From assembly GCA_958296135.2 (NCBI GenBank), contig CATQHZ020000001.1, positions 3,808,001 to 3,872,000 on the forward strand: a stretch of DNA of 64,000 bases, written 5' to 3'. The translations under genes were made by a program, and so were the position numbers. Below the pieces are notes generated by a model that saw only the letters and a list, made by a program, of their open reading frames with translations, had not been told where the DNA came from and did no database searches. The stretch is from an uncultured Poribacteria bacterium (GTDB lineage Bacteria; Poribacteria; WGA-4E; WGA-3G). Below, piece after piece: positions 7,431 through 49,121 of the stretch. How positions within the stretch are numbered: the stretch's first letter is position 1; each line of letters opens with the position of its first letter.

Positions 7431-8861
7431 GTATCTGCCCTAATCTAGCAGTGTGCATTTTTATTTGCAGTCGCCGTGGATTTGTGGTAGAATGTAGTTA
7501 CCGTTGGGGGCGAGACGGCTAGGTGCGGCTGCCCGCCGTGTCTCTCGCCCCACCTATCTAGCAGAAGGTGACAACCAACGGGAACGGTGACGCTATGGCA
7601 CTACGAGCCCAGAAGATAGCACTCAATCCAACTGAGGAACAGGTCGAGGCATTTAACCTGCATGTGCAATTCGCACGCGCCGCCTATAATGCCGCGCATT
7701 CTGATTGGAACGCCGACCGCCGTAACTCCCTCTATGATTTGAAGAAAATCTTCAACTCACGGAAGCGCGAGGTGTTCCCCGAATTCGCCGCGTGTTCTCA
7801 AAACGCAGGCAAGACTGCTATCCACGCTTTCGGTGATGCTATCGCCAGATACAAATCGGGACAGAATGGTGCGCCCAAACGGAAGACGCATAAGTCTCGC
7901 CCCGCGTTCCAGATTGATAATGGTGTGGATAGCGTCAAAATAACGGAGGACGGCAAACACGTCGTCCTCCCGATAATTGGACAGGTTAGGTTGCATGAAA
8001 CCCCTCGATGGACAGGTGAAGTTCGCCGTGCTTTCGTCAAACGCATCGCACATCGTTGGTATCTCAGCATCCTCGTCGACGTTAACGAACCGGAACCGCC
8101 TGATAGTTCCAACCTGCCCGCCGCAGGTTGTGATGTCGGCATCTCTGCCCTCGCCACGATGGACGATGGCACTGTCTATGAAAATCCGCGTGCCTTGCGC
8201 GTCAATGAACGCAAACTACGCCGTGCAAATAAGGCACTCGCCCGCAAGACGTTCATGAGCCGCAACTGGTGGAAGGCGAAGGAACGCCTCGCCCGCCTGC
8301 ATGCCCGTATCGCCAATGTGCGAACCGATGCCCATCATCAGGCGACACATCGCATCCTGCAAGGCATCTCGGCACTTGGCATCGAGAGCCTCACCGTCAA
8401 AGGTTTGATGAAAAATCGCAAGCTGAGCAAGGCACTCGCCGATGCAAGTCTTGGCGGCTTCCTCGTCAAACTCAAATATAAGGCGGTGTGGCGTGGCATC
8501 CGCATTGTGTCAGCAGATAAGTTCTGGCCGTCAACACAGCGATGCAGTTCTTGTGGATACGTCAAACGTGGCGAATTCAAACTGACGCTCAAGGACAGAG
8601 AATATCACTGCGGCATCTGCGGATGGGTAGAGGACAGAGACGTTAACGCCGCTATAAACCTTCGACAGCTCGCCTCAAGCACTGAGGAGAGTCAAAACGC
8701 CTGTGGAGATGCTGTAACACCTACTTTGGTAGGCTGGCATCAGAACCCGCGTGTGCGCGGAAGAAGCAGGAAACCGCTGACCGAACAGAGACTCGTAGAC
8801 TTTGCACAGGTTTCCAGATAAGTCTACATTTGACGAGATGCTCATAGGTTATGTAGTGCGG
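7431..8861 (+). mobile_element. Non-autonomous IS607-type element (tnpB only)
   Basis: Shares a left motif (TGCATTTTTATTTGCAGT..17 nt..TAGAAT) and a right end (CAGATA..ACATTT..GAGATG..TAGGTT..AGTGCGG) with the second element at 37137-38916. The left boundary is approximate. Confidence 0.65.
7595..8821 (+). CDS. tnpB: RNA-guided endonuclease TnpB
   Basis: N-terminal AQKIALNPT, RuvC motifs GCDVGI / IESL / DRDVNAAINL, and a CSSCG...CGICG zinc ribbon. Catalytic residues appear intact. Confidence 0.92.
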   Translation: MALRAQKIALNPTEEQVEAFNLHVQFARAAYNAAHSDWNADRRNSLYDLKKIFNSRKREVFPEFAACSQNAGKTAIHAFGDAIARYKSGQNGAPKRKTHKSRPAFQIDNGVDSVKITEDGKHVVLPIIGQVRLHETPRWTGEVRRAFVKRIAHRWYLSILVDVNEPEPPDSSNLPAAGCDVGISALATMDDGTVYENPRALRVNERKLRRANKALARKTFMSRNWWKAKERLARLHARIANVRTDAHHQATHRILQGISALGIESLTVKGLMKNRKLSKALADASLGGFLVKLKYKAVWRGIRIVSADKFWPSTQRCSSCGYVKRGEFKLTLKDREYHCGICGWVEDRDVNAAINLRQLASSTEESQNACGDAVTPTLVGWHQNPRVRGRSRKPLTEQRLVDFAQVSR

Positions 8862-9956: not shown

Positions 9957-11579
9957 TCATGGAATCGCCCGTATCTGGCGGATTTCGGAAACCTCAGACA
10001 CCGGCGGCGAGATCGGTTCATGGAATGCCATCTTCGCGGCAATTCTCCCGTAACTGTAACCATCACGGCGGGCTAACAATCGTAAATCCGCAGTGGTGCC
10101 GCTTTTTCGCGAATCTTTCACATCCGGTGCGAAATATTTGACACGGCATCTACGCGGCTTCCCTTTGGGCGTTTTATCAAAGCAGTTAATAACCCCGCGC
10201 CATTTCGTCCCATCTTGCGTTGTGAGCTCAACATGGTCCAACCGCCGGAACCCGTTGCTTTCCGCCCGTTTTTCATTCGGGAGGAAGAAGCCCGGGGCCT
10301 TCATCTTGAAAGTCTTGCGCAGATTATCACGCCGTCCATATCCCTCCGCTTGAATCACGTCAACTTGGAGAGAACTTGGTTGTTTCGGGAGACACGCAAC
10401 CGCGGCCGCGTCGTAGTAATGCGTCTTTGGCAAGCCTGCGAGGTTTCGGTTATGTGCTGTTTTTCCGCCAGTCCCGCTGAGAACGGGCAACTTCATCGCC
10501 TTGAGTATTTCAAAGAGTTTCCAGCGAATCGTGTTCACTGCAGCAGCATCAGAAAGCCCTTTCTTTGACTTGCTCACAGCGGATTTGACCTTTTTCGCAA
10601 ACTTTTCACCGCATTTCGCTTCCAACGCGTCACCGACAAGATTGCCCTTTTTCGCGTTGCACGGACGACACGCCATCGTGAGATTGTCGGGGCGACTGGA
10701 ACCGCCTTTCGCTTTAGGGAGGATGTGTTCAACCTCAAGGCGAACATTTTTGTCCCCACAATAGGCGCACTTTCGTCCGGTGAGTTCCAAGAGGTATTCG
10801 CGAATTTCGCGCCCGTGAAGTGTGCCTTGTTGATATTGAATCCCATGAATGTTGGGCTTGTCCATCAACTGCATATCAAACTTCACCGTTTCAATCGCGA
10901 GCCGTGTTATCGGAGAGACTTTGCGGTATCGCCGCGTCCACGTCTCTATATTGAAAACACGGGACATGAGGCTCGGTGCAACCCATCCGTTATCCGCGCG
11001 CTTTTGATGAGCAACACGGACGCGCTTCCAACGCTTCTTTTGGCGTTGATTCGTTTTCGTTTTCGGCAGACGTTCCCACCGATACCGCGGATCTCGCAAT
11101 TGTGCCCACGAGACGCGATTGAAGTGATTCTGCGTTTGACTCGTATCCGTGCCTTCTGGGGCCTTGGCGCGTTGATACGTCCATCCCTCGTCAGTCAGCA
11201 CCGGCACTTTTCGTCCGCGGTTTGCCCAACGCGCAGGACGATACCGTAGATTCCGAGTGCGGCGACCGCGGCGGAATCCAGACCGGTTAGTCAACGCTTT
11301 CTTTATCTGCCTTCCACGATGGTGGAGTTCCGCGGCATAGATGATATCGCCAGTCTCCGATGTGATGGCGATGCCCGATGTTTTTGAACCCGGATCCCAA
11401 CTCAGGGTGTAGTTCCCGGTAACAATCTCATCGGCAGGCACCGCTTTTTTCAGGATGATTGTAAACGGATGTCGGTTCCAAACAGCCGCCTCACCACGCT
11501 TCAATAAACGTCGCGCTATTGCCGGGTGGCACGGTTCCAATACGTTCTTGTTTCTATCAATCACAAAAACTTTTGACAT
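9957..11579 (-). CDS. iscB: IscB RNA-guided endonuclease (540 aa), CRISPR-associated, with a REC-position insertion
   Basis: PLMP-like N-terminus (VFVID...VLEPCHPAIARRLLK...PFTIIL), RuvC-I WDPGSK, Arg-rich bridge helix (RRGRRTRNLRYRPAR), GWVAPSL, RuvC-II IETVKFD, HNH (CAYC...EHILPKAKGGS...NL..AC..CN..K) and RuvC-III THYYDA. GGAGAGG ribosome-binding site precedes the ATG at 11579. Confidence 0.95.
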   Translation of the reverse strand: MSKVFVIDRNKNVLEPCHPAIARRLLKRGEAAVWNRHPFTIILKKAVPADEIVTGNYTLSWDPGSKTSGIAITSETGDIIYAAELHHRGRQIKKALTNRSGFRRGRRTRNLRYRPARWANRGRKVPVLTDEGWTYQRAKAPEGTDTSQTQNHFNRVSWAQLRDPRYRWERLPKTKTNQRQKKRWKRVRVAHQKRADNGWVAPSLMSRVFNIETWTRRYRKVSPITRLAIETVKFDMQLMDKPNIHGIQYQQGTLHGREIREYLLELTGRKCAYCGDKNVRLEVEHILPKAKGGSSRPDNLTMACRPCNAKKGNLVGDALEAKCGEKFAKKVKSAVSKSKKGLSDAAAVNTIRWKLFEILKAMKLPVLSGTGGKTAHNRNLAGLPKTHYYDAAAVACLPKQPSSLQVDVIQAEGYGRRDNLRKTFKMKAPGFFLPNEKRAESNGFRRLDHVELTTQDGTKWRGVINCFDKTPKGKPRRCRVKYFAPDVKDSRKSGTTADLRLLARRDGYSYGRIAAKMAFHEPISPPVSEVSEIRQIRAIP

Positions 11580-11589
11580 AATGTCCTCT

Positions 11590-11860
11590 CCTGCTACTGC
11601 AGAAGGTAATGTGAGCCTCGCCAATGTTATCTCTGCTTAATTCAGGGTTGACTGCCTCATCTTGACAAGAGACTGTTTACAGAGCCCCCACAGTGCTCCC
11701 GACTGGCTCCATCGGCGATCCGACGTATCTGGAGGTGTGATAACAGAGATAACGTAGTTAGTGAAAACTTAAGCTAGATACCGATTCAATTAGGCAACAA
11801 GGATTCCACCCCTTGTTCCCCGCTCCGCAAGCGGAGCTAACATGGTTTCATTGCAACTTT
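11590..11860 (-). ncRNA. omegaRNA (HEARO-like) scaffold with a 5' anti-repeat (tracrRNA-like)
   Basis: Minus-strand motifs in HEARO order: ACTACGTT...ACACC...CCAGT...CTCTG TAAACAG...CAGT...AACATTGGCGAGG...TTACC. A perfect 10-bp long-range stem joins 11744-11753 and 11626-11635. Directly upstream of iscB. Confidence 0.85.
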
Positions 11861-11940
11861 GCTGTCAACCTCCCGCAACATTTGCGTTATTGGAGGTAGA
11901 CAGCAAGTCCTTACGCCGCAAGCACGGATGCACACGGCGT
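11859..11940 (-). other. Two hairpins between the array and the omegaRNA (leader or processing element)
   Basis: TTGCTGTC-ACCTCC/GGAGGT-GACAGCAA stem at 11859-11906 and ACGCCG/CGGCGT stem at 11913-11940. Confidence 0.6.
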
Positions 11941-11950
11941 GATGCCGAGC

Positions 11951-13260
11951 GTTGCAACTTTACCATGCTCAAGCGGTAACTGAAGGATTTAAGCCGACTC
12001 CGCGCAGCCGGAAACGCGTTGCAACTTTACCATGCTCAAGCGGTAACGGTTCCATCTCGATGCGAGTTTGCGTCGTGCGGCACTGGTTGCAACTTTACCA
12101 TGCTCAAGCGGTAACGCTGCGCTTTGCGGTTTAGCTCTCCCCACGCGATTGTTGCAACTTTACCATGCTCAAGCGGTAACTCGTAAGGATAGGCGAGTGC
12201 CTTGTCAATGAGGCGTTCGTTGCAACTTTACCATGCTCAAGCGGTAACTTTACCTAAACTATAATGCGTAAAATTGACAATCTCTAGTTGCAACTTTACC
12301 ATGCTCAAGCGGTAACGCGTGTCGTAAGATTCTGCCGCCGCGTAGATGGAATGCGTTGCAACTTTACCATGCTCAAGCGGTAACCTTCATCGTAAGCCTC
12401 TTCATCGTAGGTGAAGAATTGTTGCAACTTTACCATGCTCAAGCGGTAACCGCTTGATGAACCTGCTGTTGATGAACCCCAGCAGGGCAGGGCGGCGTTG
12501 CAACTTTACCATGCTCAAGCGGTAACCAGCATCTTGAAAAACAAGGTGCGGGTGCTGCGAGCGTTGCAACTTTACCATGCTCAAGCGGTAACAGGTTTTT
12601 ACGTCTACTTGCGCCGGCCCGCCAGCCGGCGCGGTTGCAACTTTACCATGCTCAAGCGGTAACTGAACACGAAGGGCGGGGTGACGCGCATGGGCGTGAG
12701 TTGCAACTTTACCATGCTCAAGCGGTAACCTCTGTATAACCTATGTTAATCCCGTCAAATCTAGTTGCAACTTTACCATGCTCAAGCGGTAACCTAAAAT
12801 ATCCATTACATCTTTAGGCATTGCCAGCCTCGTTGCAACTTTACCATGCTCAAGCGGTAACTTAAGGTCTTCGTGAAGCCCTCCCTGCCCGTCCAGGTTG
12901 CAACTTTACCATGCTCAAGCGGTAACCATTGCAGACGAGCATTGATGTGAAGACCGGACGACTGTTGCAACTTTACCATGCTCAAGCGGTAACGTCATAG
13001 ATGGCTTCTAGCATAGGCGTGAGACGCGGTGTTGCAACTTTACCATGCTCAAGCGGTAACGCGCAGCGTCAGTCTCGGTAGCCGGTGCGGGTGCCGGTGT
13101 TGCAACTTTACCATGCTCAAGCGGTAACTTTTGGGGTTGATTTGCGCTCATGGCGTTGCCGACAGGTTGCAACTTTACCATGCACAAGCGGTAACAAATA
13201 CTGACAGCGATACGACTTCCCGCCAGAACCGTTTCAACTTTACCATGCTCAGGTGGTAAC
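11951..13260 (-). CRISPR. CRISPR array: 20 repeats of 30 nt (transcribed GTTACCGCTTGAGCATGGTAAAGTTGCAAC) and 19 unique spacers of 34-46 nt
   Basis: Repeats start at 11951, 12018, 12086, 12151, 12219, 12287, 12355, 12421, 12497, 12563, 12634, 12700, 12764, 12832, 12897, 12964, 13031, 13099, 13166 (1 mismatch) and 13231 (3 mismatches). Confidence 0.98.
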
Positions 13261-13275
13261 CGGCAACTATGTTAA

Positions 13276-13304
13276 AGTATACCACGCTTTCTTCTGAATT
13301 GCAA
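13276..13304 (-). promoter_or_regulatory. sigma70 promoter driving the array, omegaRNA and iscB
   Basis: Minus strand TTGCAA-17 nt-TATACT with an extended -10 TG, 15 nt upstream of the first repeat. Confidence 0.7.
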
Positions 13305-13378
13305 ATGAAATCGACCTATTTGGTTAGCATCCCGCGTCCGGAAGTGCAATGCTAAAGAAGCGTGTGGTGCTACTAACC

Positions 13379-14302
13379 TCATACAAGTTTGTTCAAATCG
13401 ACAGGTAACCCGACAGATTTCATTTCCTGAGCCAGTCTCAGTTTCCATCCATCCTCGCTCTTCATTGGAATATAAAGGAGTCCATCAAGATCGGAGGGGT
13501 TTTCTAGTTCCCCTTTAACGAGCAAACAGACTCTTCCGCGTTCCAACTTTCCTTGAAAATAGCCGAGTTCTAGGATGACGTTTTGACGAGCCCGAAGTTT
13601 GAGATCCTCATCTGCTTCATTCCTTAGGGCACCAACATCATCGGGAGTCAGCAAAGCAATAGCAAACCTAACGTTGTTTGCCAATTGCTCAAGCTTCTCA
13701 ATAATCGTTAGACCGGAGTTGGGTTGGTTTTCAAGGATGATTTCCTTGAATCCTAAATCCCTGAGGAACAAAACGACAGCGTTTTTCGCCGCATCGTCCC
13801 GTCCATGCACGATAAACACTGAAGTGTCCGCAGGAGTGTCTGAAGGTAGATTACGCAGATTTATCTTTCCCACCGTTTCAGATCTGGCTTCCACCGTAGA
13901 ACCTTCTTGTGCTATCTGTAACCGTGTTAACTGTTCCGGATCCAAAACCGATATTTCGCCATCATCAACAGAATCCACCTCTTTTGCCTTCGGGTGATAG
14001 GAGAGGTAGGAACGTTCCCCTTTTCTTTCTTCGATGATAGCGAGCCATATACCGCCGCAACTCCCTTCGCAGCACAGCGTTTTTTGTCTGTCGCAGAGTT
14101 TGATTTCAAGTTGATGCGAAGCCCCCCAGGGACAAGCAATGTCAATAAATTCGTGAGGTTGTGCCGGCGTGGAAAGAAGGACTTTCCATGCACCACCTCG
14201 TTGCAAGATACCATGCACCTTCTTACCTGTCGTATCTACGATAAGAAGGTCTTTCCCATCAAATGCCCCTGAAGGAAGCATTCCATTATAAGGTCTATAC
14301 AT
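13379..14302 (-). CDS. TIR-like domain (predicted nucleotide-binding, CBASS/Pycsar-effector-like) protein with an unknown N-terminal domain
   Basis: VFIVHGRD...TIIEKLE...FAIALLTPDD...RARQNVILELGYF...PSDLDG motifs. GGAG ribosome-binding site before the ATG at 14302. Confidence 0.85.
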   Translation of the reverse strand: MYRPYNGMLPSGAFDGKDLLIVDTTGKKVHGILQRGGAWKVLLSTPAQPHEFIDIACPWGASHQLEIKLCDRQKTLCCEGSCGGIWLAIIEERKGERSYLSYHPKAKEVDSVDDGEISVLDPEQLTRLQIAQEGSTVEARSETVGKINLRNLPSDTPADTSVFIVHGRDDAAKNAVVLFLRDLGFKEIILENQPNSGLTIIEKLEQLANNVRFAIALLTPDDVGALRNEADEDLKLRARQNVILELGYFQGKLERGRVCLLVKGELENPSDLDGLLYIPMKSEDGWKLRLAQEMKSVGLPVDLNKLV

Positions 14303-14475
14303 TATTTCTCCTTCCACCCGCAGTTCCAGAAAACCCGCACCAGCATCGTTACATTTCAAGGGAAACCGTTAAGTTCTCTCATACCATCGGTGCATGAGCG
14401 CAGCGTTACCATAACCCGACACCGCAATGGCGATGCGAAGCCGGTAACTGAACGTACCTGCATCCTTTTCTTTTA

Positions 14476-48047: not shown

Positions 48048-49121
48048 TTAATATTCACGTTCAACGAAAAAATCAATTAGCGATAGAAACAGCCGCTTTG
48101 CCATGCCATCAGGGAGATGGGCAAAATTGTGCGTAAACTGTCCAGCCGCCTCTTGCAAGAGAGCCTTGGAGCGGCGTTGTGCGTACGCAATGGAGTCGTA
48201 TTTTCGCATTAACTGTAGCACGCTTTCGATATCCGCTTCCGTTTTCTCATCGCGCGGGCGCGCCATGATGTCAATGACGCGCTGCGCTTCCGTTGGTGTA
48301 CACGCATTGAAGAGGTGGATAAGCACCAGGGTACGCTTTCCTTCGCTGATGTCGCCAGCGATTTCTTTCCCGTATCGGCCGACATCGCCGATGAGATTAA
48401 GGACATCGTCCTGAATTTGGAACGCAACGCCCAAGTCTTCGCCAAGTTGAACGAAAGCATCAACTTCCGCGTCACTTGCTCCACCGATAATTGCGCCGAC
48501 ACGGCACGGCGTGATGCAGGTATACCACGCCGTTTTCTGGATACACATCGTCAGGTAATCCTCTTCGTCAAGATTCCATCGGTTGCTGCCTACCCAGCTG
48601 AGTTCAATGTGTTGTCCCTCAACGACTTGGTTGCTCAGTTGGATGAATTCGGAGAGAATGCGGAAGGCCAGTTCGTGCCCGAGAATCTCTGTGTTGCGGA
48701 GGAGCATCTCCCACATTTTACAGTGGAGCGCATCGCCAACGTTGATAGCCATCGGGACCCCGTGCTTTTGATGAAGGCACGGCTCGCCGCGCCGAAGTTC
48801 AGAACCATCTTCAATGTCATCGTGAATGAGAAGCCAATTTTGGAGGAGCTCCAAGGCAGCAGCCGTATTAACAGCGCGTTTCGATTCACCACCGAAGGCC
48901 TCGCAGATAAGCAGACAGAGCGCCGGCCGTAACCCCTTCGCCGCTCGACGCGGATAGTCCAACATCATCTGATACAATTGATGCACGTCCTCGTGCGCGT
49001 CTGTCGTCGGCAGAAAGTCAAAGATGCAAGTATCCACCTCGCGCTTGACATCGCTGAGGTACTCGGTGACGTTCGCTGTCATTCGCGAAGCGTTCAATTG
49101 GCATTTTGGGTTCAAGGACAT
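48048..49121 (-). CDS. Polyprenyl diphosphate synthase
   Basis: LIHDDIED...RRG, AFQIQDD and DISEGK motifs. Confidence 0.93.
   Translation of the reverse strand: MSLNPKCQLNASRMTANVTEYLSDVKREVDTCIFDFLPTTDAHEDVHQLYQMMLDYPRRAAKGLRPALCLLICEAFGGESKRAVNTAAALELLQNWLLIHDDIEDGSELRRGEPCLHQKHGVPMAINVGDALHCKMWEMLLRNTEILGHELAFRILSEFIQLSNQVVEGQHIELSWVGSNRWNLDEEDYLTMCIQKTAWYTCITPCRVGAIIGGASDAEVDAFVQLGEDLGVAFQIQDDVLNLIGDVGRYGKEIAGDISEGKRTLVLIHLFNACTPTEAQRVIDIMARPRDEKTEADIESVLQLMRKYDSIAYAQRRSKALLQEAAGQFTHNFAHLPDGMAKRLFLSLIDFFVEREY

What the first reader, a model, noticed from the sequence alone, without database searches (positions are those of the whole stretch)
11815..11857. Anti-repeat at the omegaRNA 5' end: split crRNA:tracr-omegaRNA architecture
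Seen: the minus strand reads GTTGCAA-tgaa-ACCATGTT-ag-ctccgcttgcg-GAGCGG-gg-AAC. This can pair with the minus-strand repeat GTTACCGCTTGAGCATGGTAAAGTTGCAAC in three helices (7 bp, 8 bp with G-U, about 9 bp), with an internal loop and an inserted hairpin. It sits where the guide-adaptor stem of an omegaRNA would be, just 5' of the HEARO core. Inference: the repeat supplies one strand of that stem in trans, so any crRNA can load onto one scaffold, as with Cas9 tracrRNA. Caveat: GTTGCAAC is self-palindromic, so only the other two helices are informative about orientation.
Basis: partly seen in the sequence, partly recalled or inferred. Interest (0 to 1): 0.85.

Follow-up and report, generated by a model that had tools for sequence, protein, structure and literature searches.

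The report
Anti-repeat of a CRISPR-associated IscB omegaRNA

Summary
On the minus strand the window holds, in order: a promoter-like site, a 20-repeat CRISPR array, a conserved hairpin, the anti-repeat, a HEARO/omegaRNA (Rfam RF02033) and a 540-aa IscB.

Helices 1 and 2 (repeat nt 23-30 and 12-19) hold up. They form in the unconstrained co-fold, which gains -19.1 kcal/mol; none of 300 shuffles reached that.

Helix 3 (GAGCGG-gg-AAC) does not hold. Enforcing it costs 14.6 kcal/mol, and in relatives it pairs no better than shuffled columns. Those bases form two hairpins of the HEARO multiloop.

The true guide-proximal helix is repeat nt 1-7 with CGGTATC at 11783-11777, the 3' strand of the HEARO first stem. 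It shows compensatory changes in related loci, with a constant U.U at position 2.

Relatives form a series:
- one repeat-like unit folded in cis;
- two repeats;
- 4 to at least 21 repeats;
- one locus with the array downstream of iscB and a consensus promoter in front of the anti-repeat.

The split crRNA:tracr-omegaRNA reading is therefore supported. The architecture is already published for CRISPR-associated IscB, so this is a new member of a known kind.

No RNase III domain was found in this genome, so Cas9-style RNase III processing should not be assumed.

The parts
13276..13304 (-). Promoter-like site (TTGCAA-17-TATACT with TG) 16 nt upstream of the first repeat; likely drives the array towards iscB
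   Evidence: 9 of 12 consensus matches with an extended -10. No terminator-like site found in 11500-13450. L002 has a similar TTGATT-17-TACAAT before its first repeat (read).
11951..13260 (-). CRISPR array: 20 repeats of 30 nt and 19 unique spacers of 34-46 nt. The two promoter-proximal repeats are degenerate (3 and 1 mismatches).
11859..11906 (-). Conserved long hairpin (TTGCTGTC..CCTCC..GGAGG..GACAGCAA) between the last repeat and the anti-repeat. It corresponds to the loop of the single-unit guide-adaptor hairpin seen in L170.
   Evidence: helix 5, 13 pairs, 88.8% of cells paired, 3 pairs changed on both sides. It forms in the co-fold. The same element sits in the loop of the one-unit omegaRNA of L170.
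11850..11857 (-). Anti-repeat, distal helix 1 strand (GTTGCAAT). Pairs with repeat nt 23-30 (GTTGCAAC, a palindrome).
   Evidence: helix 4, 96.1% paired but almost invariant, so uninformative.
11839..11846 (-). Anti-repeat, helix 2 strand (ACCATGTT). Pairs with repeat nt 12-19 (AGCATGGT).
   Evidence: helices 2 and 3, with one-sided changes only, in the 4-5 sequences that have these columns.
11822..11837 (-). hp1, an intramolecular hairpin (GCTCCG-CTTG-CGGAGC). This is the first hairpin of the HEARO multiloop.
   Evidence: Rfam alignment; MFE. Equivalent hairpins are visible by eye in L160, L162 and L002.
11792..11821 (-). hp2, the second hairpin of the HEARO multiloop (core AACAAGGG/CCTTGTT).
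   Evidence: Rfam alignment; MFE.
11777..11783 (-). Guide-proximal anti-repeat: CGGTATC, the 3' strand of HEARO stem P1. Pairs with repeat nt 1-7 (G-C, U.U, then 5 Watson-Crick pairs).
   Evidence: MFE. Covariation (helix 1): position 4 AU6/UA3/CG1; position 5 UG5/CG2/AU1/GC1/UA1; position 6 CG9/AU1. Pair table of 13 loci.
11606..11841 (-). HEARO/omegaRNA scaffold (Rfam RF02033). The P1 5' strand of the model is poorly matched.
   Evidence: 83.4 bits against a gathering score of 83, E 2.5e-15. It is the only HEARO match in the genome.
9957..11579 (-). iscB, 540 aa (RRXRR/RuvC plus HNH). Residues at the positions I take, from recall, to be catalytic are conserved.
   Evidence: PF14239 at 1.5e-55, PF14279 at 2.9e-13. 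D62, E230, H285, N308, H387 and D390 are invariant in 3 sequences.

Best explanation
This is a CRISPR-associated IscB (OMEGA) locus. The omegaRNA guide-adaptor hairpin has been opened into a crRNA strand (the CRISPR repeat) and a tracrRNA-like strand at the 5' end of the scaffold.

Proposed steps:
1. The array is transcribed on the minus strand towards iscB.
2. Each spacer-repeat unit pairs with the scaffold through three contacts: repeat nt 23-30 with 11857-11850, nt 12-19 with 11846-11839, and nt 1 and 3-7 with 11777 and 11779-11783.
3. This rebuilds HEARO stem P1 as one arm of a four-way junction, together with hairpins hp1 and hp2.
4. The 3' end of the spacer then sits where an omegaRNA guide sits, directly 5' of P1.
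5. IscB uses it to cut matching DNA.

The last repeat can make the same pairing in cis across a 93-nt loop. All other units must do it in trans.

What is shown: the pairing scheme, by thermodynamics and by covariation in relatives, and the homology to HEARO.
What is inferred: trans loading in this particular locus, how the RNAs are processed, and nuclease activity.
For: Anatomy.

Co-fold: the unconstrained MFE forms exactly this scheme. The binding gain is -19.1 to -24.2 kcal/mol, and 0 of 300 shuffles reached -19.1.

Covariation on 11 loci:
- Whole structure: 87.3% of cells paired, against 31.9-57.7% when the partners are slid.
- Covariation score 0.154 against 0.095 in shuffles (0 of 500 reached it).
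- In P1, 3 of 7 pairs change on both sides, and position 2 is U.U in 11 of 11.

Further loci outside that alignment show the same 5'-repeat/pre-nexus pairing: L080, L081, L168, L170, L171 and L173.

The weak cis copy of the P1 5' strand inside the scaffold (GTTAGC) did not follow the compensatory changes in L160 and L162. The repeat did (read).

L171: array from 2552, downstream of iscB (1087-2466); anti-repeat at 868-882; TTGACA-16-TATAAT at 824-851.

Arrays of near-identical loci L164-L167 share none of their 3-6 spacers, so the arrays turn over.

RNA-library contigs of relatives cover the scaffold and run on into their anti-repeat regions. This is weak evidence, because contigs show presence only.

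Literature (passages read): repeat plus anti-repeat in the DelIscB ncRNA, and activity with a truncated DR/anti-repeat hairpin (PMC12660989). The guide adaptor hairpin corresponds to the Cas9 repeat:anti-repeat duplex (PMC9640706).
Against: - No RNA ends, no processing sites and no activity data exist for this locus.
- The promoter scan found no promoter between the array and the anti-repeat. Scaffold and array may therefore be one transcript, with only one scaffold per 20 repeats.
- The last repeat could satisfy the pairing in cis alone.
- Helices 1 and 2 are nearly invariant among close relatives, so they carry little covariation.
- The 11 aligned loci are kin, and the structure was derived from them, which inflates the controls.
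- L181 is one column out of register in A2. It counts as broken, although it pairs 10 of 10 by eye.
- Two other sites in the window bind the distal repeat part as well by energy alone.
- No spacer matched a phage record or the own genome, so targets are unknown.
- No RNase III was found, so the Cas9-like maturation step has no candidate enzyme.
Confidence: 0.8

Rival explanations
1. One reading: three intermolecular helices, the third between repeat nt 1-10 and GAGCGG-gg-AAC (11825-11815), with only one small inserted hairpin.
For: In the window itself these bases can pair: 9 pairs, with one bulge on each strand. The short 43-nt co-fold shows a partial version.
Against: - Enforcing it costs 14.6 kcal/mol against the MFE.
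- It requires melting hp1 and hp2, which are the two hairpins of the HEARO consensus multiloop.
- In the relatives that have these columns, pairing is 62.2% against 63.1% in shuffles, and 1 pair has a change on both sides, as often as in shuffles (279 of 500).
- L160, at 78% protein identity, has GAGCAGGGATT there.
Confidence: 0.04
2. Cis only: the scaffold pairs only with the terminal repeat of its own transcript, so only spacer 19 guides IscB. The rest of the array is a by-product or a reservoir that is shifted into the terminal position by recombination.
For: - One-unit relatives L170 and L179 work this way by design.
- The 93-nt linker with its conserved hairpin is kept in all array-bearing close relatives.
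- No separate tracr promoter was found in the window.
- Published work on DelIscB used a single fused RNA (PMC12660989, passages).
Against: - 18 of 20 repeats are identical, including all pairing positions.
- Arrays of 4 to at least 21 units with fully different spacers occur in close relatives.
- L171 separates array and anti-repeat by the iscB gene and gives the anti-repeat its own promoter.
Confidence: 0.13
3. Chance complementarity, or a decayed terminal repeat: AAAGTTGCAA at 11860-11851 is also a direct match to the repeat's 3' end because GTTGCAAC is a palindrome.
For: The direct match is 10 nt. Two unrelated sites in the window bind the distal repeat part equally well.
Against: - Position and strand are exactly at the HEARO 5' end.
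- 0 of 300 shuffles reach the binding energy.
- The same arrangement occurs with different repeat sequences in more than 12 loci, with compensatory changes.
Confidence: 0.03

Closest known systems
CRISPR-associated IscB systems (Altae-Tran et al. 2021, Science, not held here; DelIscB, PMC12660989)
   Same: - A small IscB (RRXRR/RuvC plus HNH) without adjacent cas1/cas2.
- A CRISPR array upstream.
- An ncRNA with repeat and anti-repeat regions followed by an omegaRNA-like scaffold.
- The DR/anti-repeat hairpin can be shortened into a single guide (passages of PMC12660989).
- Several small IscB branches became CRISPR-associated independently (passage of PMC10734277).
   Different: I could not compare sequences, because no published sequence was available to the tools. 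This protein is 540 aa, against 457 aa stated for DelIscB. I did not see described in the passages I read:
- the four-way junction (P1 in trans plus hp1 and hp2);
- the conserved U.U at position 2;
- the graded series from 1 to at least 21 repeats within one group of genomes;
- the variant with the array downstream of iscB.
These may be in the 2021 paper or its supplements, which I could not read.
Type II CRISPR-Cas9 crRNA:tracrRNA
   Same: The crRNA is spacer 5', repeat 3'. The 5' end of the repeat pairs with the 3' end of the anti-repeat next to the guide. The scaffold continues into a nexus-like element. One scaffold serves many crRNAs.
   Different: - The effector has no REC lobe and gave no Cas9 Pfam domain.
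- No cas1/cas2/csn2 was found among the seven neighbouring ORFs scanned with Pfam.
- The scaffold is a roughly 250-nt HEARO RNA.
- The duplex is interrupted by two scaffold hairpins.
- No RNase III was detected in the genome.
Canonical IscB omegaRNA / Rfam HEARO (OgeuIscB structure, PMC9640706)
   Same: The scaffold matches RF02033 end to end. The repeat:anti-repeat P1 takes the place of the guide adaptor hairpin that links guide and nexus stem. Relatives L170 and L179 still have it as one cis hairpin.
   Different: The 5' strand of the first stem is supplied by a repeated array unit instead of the scaffold's own 5' end. The element is single-copy in the genome, which is not how a multiplying insertion sequence looks.
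TranC, the TnpB-to-Cas12 intermediates with a split omegaRNA (mentioned in PMC13565253, passage only)
   Same: The same evolutionary step: a transposon guide RNA is functionally split into crRNA and tracrRNA.
   Different: A different nuclease family (TnpB/Cas12 against IscB/Cas9) and the opposite guide polarity.

Membership tests
IscB / OMEGA (HEARO) system | Protein with an RRXRR/RuvC-like nuclease interrupted by an HNH domain, about 400-600 aa, without a REC lobe | tested here: met
   PF14239 at 1.5e-55, PF14279 and PF01844 HNH, 540 aa. D62, E230, H285, H387 and D390 are invariant.
IscB / OMEGA (HEARO) system | HEARO/omegaRNA directly upstream of the ORF on the same strand | tested here: met
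   RF02033, 83.4 bits against a gathering score of 83, model positions 1-211, ending 27 nt before the ATG. The score is borderline because the P1 5' strand is not matched.
IscB / OMEGA (HEARO) system | Part of an IS200/IS605 element (TnpA, transposon ends, several copies) | tested here: inconclusive
   There is one HEARO match in the genome. No TnpA was among the neighbours scanned. Transposon ends were not searched. A TnpB-like ORF lies at 7568-8821 on the other strand.
CRISPR-associated IscB | CRISPR array adjacent to the omegaRNA/iscB and in the same orientation | tested here: met
   20 repeats, 93 nt from the anti-repeat.
CRISPR-associated IscB | Anti-repeat in the ncRNA complementary to the repeat | tested here: met
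   MFE, shuffles; covariation.
CRISPR-associated IscB | RNA-guided DNA cleavage using array-derived guides | not testable with these tools
   No activity or small-RNA data exist for this locus. One search gives only contigs of relatives.
Type II CRISPR-Cas (Cas9) | Cas9 effector with a REC lobe | tested here: not met
   no Cas9 families; 540 aa. There is a 60-170 aa insertion after the arginine-rich region relative to 435-456 aa IscBs, but its fold was not examined.
Type II CRISPR-Cas (Cas9) | cas1-cas2 adaptation genes in the locus | tested here: not met
   Among the seven ORFs scanned, the neighbours are a TIR-domain protein, DUF5131, EPSP synthase and so on. cas1/cas2 occur elsewhere in the genome, 173 kb and 575 kb away.
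Type II CRISPR-Cas (Cas9) | RNase III-dependent co-processing of the repeat:anti-repeat duplex | tested here: inconclusive
   PF14622, PF00636 and TIGR02191 found no RNase III in the 94.7%-complete genome; the only hit was 20.2 bits on the dsRBD part. PF14622 was found in 0 of 21 genomes of the group. A divergent enzyme cannot be excluded.

The most novel reading that the evidence does not exclude
This group of genomes preserves living stages of the step from omegaRNA to crRNA plus tracrRNA:
- a one-unit cis hairpin (L170, L179);
- two repeats (L168);
- 4 to at least 21 repeats;
- an array moved behind iscB, with a promoter-driven tracr (L171).

The arrays may be extended by the host's own class 1 Cas1-Cas2 acting in trans. 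The IscB arrays copy the unit size of a co-resident Cas1-linked array:
- 30-nt repeats with 65-68 nt spacing in the own genome and in five of the six other genomes fetched that carry 30-nt IscB arrays (no such array in the one Cas1 region fetched for the sixth, G160);
- 37-nt IscB repeats where a 37-nt array abuts them.

Degenerate repeats sit at the promoter end in 3 arrays. This hints that new units enter next to the scaffold, so the newest spacer would be the cis guide. Maturation would be independent of RNase III, perhaps through the co-resident Cas6 or through no cleavage of the duplex at all.
Probability: 0.25. Interest if true: 0.7.

Novelty: new member of a known kind. Interest (0 to 1): 0.4.

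Why it matters
Within one group of related genomes, the locus gives a well-resolved natural example of how a transposon guide RNA becomes a crRNA:tracrRNA pair. It comes with a pairing scheme precise enough to design single guides: fuse repeat nt 1-7 or more to 11783 onwards and keep hp1 and hp2.

The relatives supply graded intermediates and natural compensatory mutants.

The apparent lack of RNase III, and the match in unit size with co-resident Cas1-linked arrays, raise two testable questions: how such minimal systems mature their guides, and how they acquire them.

As a genome-editing lead it is one more compact IscB with a modular guide. It is not a new principle.

Tried and rejected
Literature.
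- Altae-Tran et al. 2021 could not be read: it is not held under its PMC id or its DOI. What I say about it rests on passages in other papers and on recall.
- I did not open any supplements. Supplementary Fig. 1a of PMC12660989, and the supplements of the 2021 paper, may show the published repeat/anti-repeat fold and list loci that include this clade.
- A search for papers holding both 'Poribacteria' and 'IscB' found none in the searchable library. That search does not cover subscription journals.

Spacer targets.
- The whole array against the phage collection gave no match at E up to 1.
- Spacers against the own genome gave only 14-21 nt chance-level matches.
- I did not scan viral contigs for protospacers. 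That would have required typing several neighbouring stretches of the window.

RNA runs.
- The four RNA runs are contigs of relatives at 88-99% likeness over 11605-11786 only.
- The lack of cover over iscB and most of the array says nothing.
- One 35-nt repeat-like piece at 12896-12930, with other flanks, appeared in 2 runs.
- No starts, ends or strands can be read from contigs.

Cas1 and array presence. Cas1 is in 132 of 176 genomes of the phylum, so its presence does not discriminate genomes with IscB arrays from those without. I dropped that test.

Loci not examined.
- Arrays flagged in L026, L058, L069 and L099 were not examined. L099's array lies upstream of its IscB match and may be another case.
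- L163 lacks the upstream region.

Script and alignment errors.
- The script picked a wrong site for L002. The correct pairing, GTTTGAG/CTCAATC, was read and used.
- A first version of helix 2 columns was off by one and was corrected.
The correct place is 11783-11777.

Not done. No structure prediction, complex prediction or protein database search was run, because the question did not need them.

Full report
What is there.
Read on the minus strand, the region holds the following, in order:
- a promoter-like site, TTGCAA-17-TATACT with an extended -10, at 13304-13276;
- a CRISPR array of 20 repeats of 30 nt (GTTACCGCTTGAGCATGGTAAAGTTGCAAC) from 13260 to 11951, with 19 unique spacers of 34-46 nt;
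- a 93-nt linker that contains a conserved long hairpin (11906-11859);
- the stretch under review (11857-11815);
- a full-length match to Rfam HEARO RF02033 at 11841-11606, 83.4 bits against a gathering score of 83;
- a 540-aa ORF at 11579-9957 with RRXRR (1.5e-55) and HNH domains, that is an IscB.

The promoter scan found no terminator-like site between 13450 and 11500. The scanned flanking genes are not cas genes: a TIR-domain protein, DUF5131, EPSP synthase and a TnpB-like ORF. The genome (5.19 Mb, 94.7% complete) has this one HEARO match and this one array with this repeat.

Check of the observation.
Helix 1 (repeat nt 23-30 with 11857-11850) and helix 2 (repeat nt 12-19 with 11846-11839, one G-U) form in every unconstrained co-fold. 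Binding of the repeat to the scaffold's first 118 nt gains -19.1 kcal/mol. 300 dinucleotide shuffles gave -5.7 +/- 2.85, and none reached the observed value.

A duplex scan of the whole window is less flattering. The site is third among 41,761 non-array windows, behind 48085-48120 and 14188-14229. Complementarity alone would be only suggestive.

The third helix.
This is not what the RNA is predicted to do, and it is not conserved.
- In the MFE, GAGC is the 3' arm of a hairpin (hp1, 11837-11822), and GGGGAAC opens a second hairpin (hp2, 11821-11792).
- These are the two hairpins that the HEARO consensus places inside its first stem.
- In the aligned relatives that have these columns, it is paired in 62.2% of cells, against 63.1% in shuffles (378 of 500 at least as high), and one pair changes on both sides, no more often than in shuffles (279 of 500).

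The MFE instead pairs repeat G1 and U3-G7 with C11777 and A11779-C11783. This is the heptamer CGGTATC that Rfam aligns as the 3' strand of HEARO stem P1, directly before the TAG and the nexus/pseudoknot element.

Relatives.
- A protein-based scan of species-representative genomes gave 77 loci. Two of them, L002 and L003, have arrays directly upstream of iscB. Their records are titled as Poribacteria MAGs.
- A search of 176 genomes of the window's phylum found IscB relatives at E <= 1e-40 in 20.
- Of 18 loci whose upstream region I extracted, 14 have an array of three or more repeats there: the window, L160, L161, L162, L164, L165, L166, L167, L181, L173, L002 and L003, plus the metagenome loci L080 and L081.
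- Their repeats differ (for example GTTTCCGCTTTGG.., GTTCTCGCTTGAG.., GTTTGAGCTTGAG.., GTTTACGCTGTAGC..), and the heptamer before TAG/AAG differs with them (CGGAATC, CGAGATC, CTCAATC, GTGTAATC).
- On an alignment of 11 loci running from the last repeat to the pseudoknot (A2), the P1 pairs read as follows:
  - position 1: G-C in 10 of 11;
  - position 2: U.U in 11 of 11, never a pair;
  - position 3: U-A in 10;
  - position 4: AU 6, UA 3, CG 1;
  - position 5: UG 5, CG 2, AU 1, GC 1, UA 1;
  - position 6: CG 9, AU 1;
  - position 7: GC 5, GU 4.
- The one non-conforming row, L181, is one column out of register in the alignment. It pairs at 10 of 10 positions when read in register.
- For the whole structure I named, 87.3% of cells pair, against 31.9-57.7% when partners are slid. 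The covariation score is 0.154, against 0.095 in shuffles (0 of 500).
- These controls are generous, because the loci are kin and I derived the structure from them. The compensatory changes at positions 4-6 are nevertheless plain.
- In L161, L164-L167 and L003 the two multiloop hairpins are absent, and the repeat:anti-repeat duplex runs on without interruption for 14-19 bp. In the window, L160, L162 and L002 they are present.
- The scaffold keeps a weak cis copy of the P1 5' strand (GTTAGC in the window). This copy did not follow the compensatory changes in L160 and L162, while the repeat did. Selection therefore acts on the repeat:scaffold pairing (read).

Cis or trans.
In the window the last repeat could fold onto the anti-repeat across the 93-nt linker. 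The relatives show where this arrangement comes from.
- L170 and L179 have a single repeat-like unit, the same linker hairpin and a full-length anti-repeat. This is an ordinary omegaRNA whose guide-adaptor hairpin is long (-70 kcal/mol as one hairpin).
- L168 has two repeats.
- L164 and L165 have four.
- The window has 20, and L003 at least 21 within reach (27 in the k-mer scan of the whole locus).
- L173 ends its array with a truncated repeat joined by 26 nt to the anti-repeat.
- L171 is the clearest trans case. Its 11-repeat array (37-nt repeats) starts at 2552, behind iscB (1087-2466). The anti-repeat (868-882) pairs with repeat nt 1-15, with the same G-C, U.U start. A 12-of-12 consensus promoter with TG lies at 824-851.

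The four nearly identical loci L164-L167 share none of their 3-6 spacers, so the arrays turn over.

I therefore take trans loading of internal units as the most likely mode in the window as well. It remains an inference there. The scan found no separate promoter, and the RNA data are only contigs of relatives that cover the scaffold and run on into their anti-repeat regions.

Processing and adaptation.
- Two Pfam RNase III models and TIGR02191 found no RNase III in this genome. The only hit was 20.2 bits on the double-strand-binding part, against a cut-off of 166.
- PF14622 was found in 0 of 21 genomes of the group (19 of them at least 90% complete), while it was found in 8 bacterial controls.
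- A divergent enzyme cannot be excluded, but Cas9-style maturation should not be assumed.

The genome has two class 1-like loci with cas1 and cas2, and one with cas6.
- One of their arrays has 30-nt repeats ending in ATTGAAAC with 65-69 nt spacing, the same unit size as the IscB array.
- The same 30-nt array type stands beside Cas1 in G077, G152, G171, G069 and G044, whose IscB arrays have 30-nt repeats, and also in G030. The one Cas1 region fetched for G160 held only a 37-nt array.
- The two IscB arrays with 37-nt repeats (L171, L173) abut a different 37-nt array.
- Degenerate repeats lie at the promoter end in the window, L162 and L167, but not in L164.

These points suggest, and do not show, that host Cas1-Cas2 feeds the IscB arrays, and that new units enter next to the scaffold.

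Comparison with what is known.
- CRISPR-associated IscBs were reported in 2021. [quoted passage not shown]
- PMC10734277 states that several small IscB branches became CRISPR-associated independently (passage).
- PMC12660989 describes the DelIscB ncRNA with spacers, repeats and an anti-repeat, truncates the DR/anti-repeat hairpin into a working single guide, and leaves open whether it is processed into two RNAs (passages).
- PMC9640706 equates the Cas9 repeat:anti-repeat duplex with the IscB guide adaptor hairpin (passage).

What this locus and its relatives add is a corrected and covariation-backed pairing scheme, a four-way-junction variant, a graded natural series, and the RNase III question. 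I could not compare sequences with the published systems, so I cannot say whether this is one of the published branches.

Verdict.
This is a new member of a known kind. Interest 0.4. Confidence in the pairing scheme and the overall reading is 0.8.

Noticed in passing
own genome G000 and 20 relatives: No RNase III catalytic domain was found: PF14622, PF00636 and TIGR02191 in the own genome, and PF14622 in 0 of 21 genomes of the group. The bacterial controls were hit. This is unusual for bacteria and bears on how any duplex RNA is processed here.
   Followed up: partly
own genome C1:4396603-4401247 and C1:3642843-3645595; L193-L205: Cas1-linked arrays with 30-nt repeats (CTTTTAATCG.ACCA..GGAAT.GAAAC) and 65-68 nt spacing stand in the own genome and in G077, G152, G171, G069 and G044, whose IscB arrays have the same unit size, and in G030. 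A second array type has 37-nt repeats. The IscB arrays with 37-nt repeats (L171, L173) abut another 37-nt array.
   Followed up: partly
window 13379-14359 (-): A 326-aa ORF with a CAP12/Pycsar-effector TIR domain (PF10137, 4.3e-37) lies directly upstream of the array leader. This suggests a defence-island context.
   Followed up: no
window 14188-14229 (+): A solitary repeat-like fragment (about 17 of 20 nt, with one indel, same orientation as the array repeats) lies inside the TIR-domain ORF, 930 nt beyond the array. It may be chance or a relic.
   Followed up: no
window 7568-8821 (+): A 417-aa TnpB-like ORF (OrfB_IS605 plus the Cas12f1-like TNB domain), a second RNA-guided-nuclease family member, lies 1.1 kb from iscB.
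   Followed up: no
window IscB residues about 125-195; L164-L167, L003: Array-bearing IscBs of this clade carry a 60-170 aa lysine/arginine-rich insertion after the arginine-rich (bridge-helix) region. Non-CRISPR relatives of 435-456 aa lack it. This is the place where Cas9 has its REC lobe (placement recalled, not tested).
   Followed up: no
window 11837-11826; L160, L162 hp1: The 5' arm of hairpin hp1 copies repeat nt 5-11 (CCGCTTG in the window, CCGCTTT in L160). The hairpin could therefore exchange strands with the repeat, or it may be a remnant of a repeat duplication.
   Followed up: no
L164-L167 (G160, G173, G150, G171): These four loci have near-identical scaffolds and linkers, but arrays of 4-7 repeats with no spacer in common. 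Degenerate repeats lie at the promoter-proximal end in the window, L162 and L167.
   Followed up: partly
L099 350-603: A four-copy repeat array lies upstream of an IscB match in a metagenome contig. It may be another CRISPR-associated IscB of a different branch.
   Followed up: no
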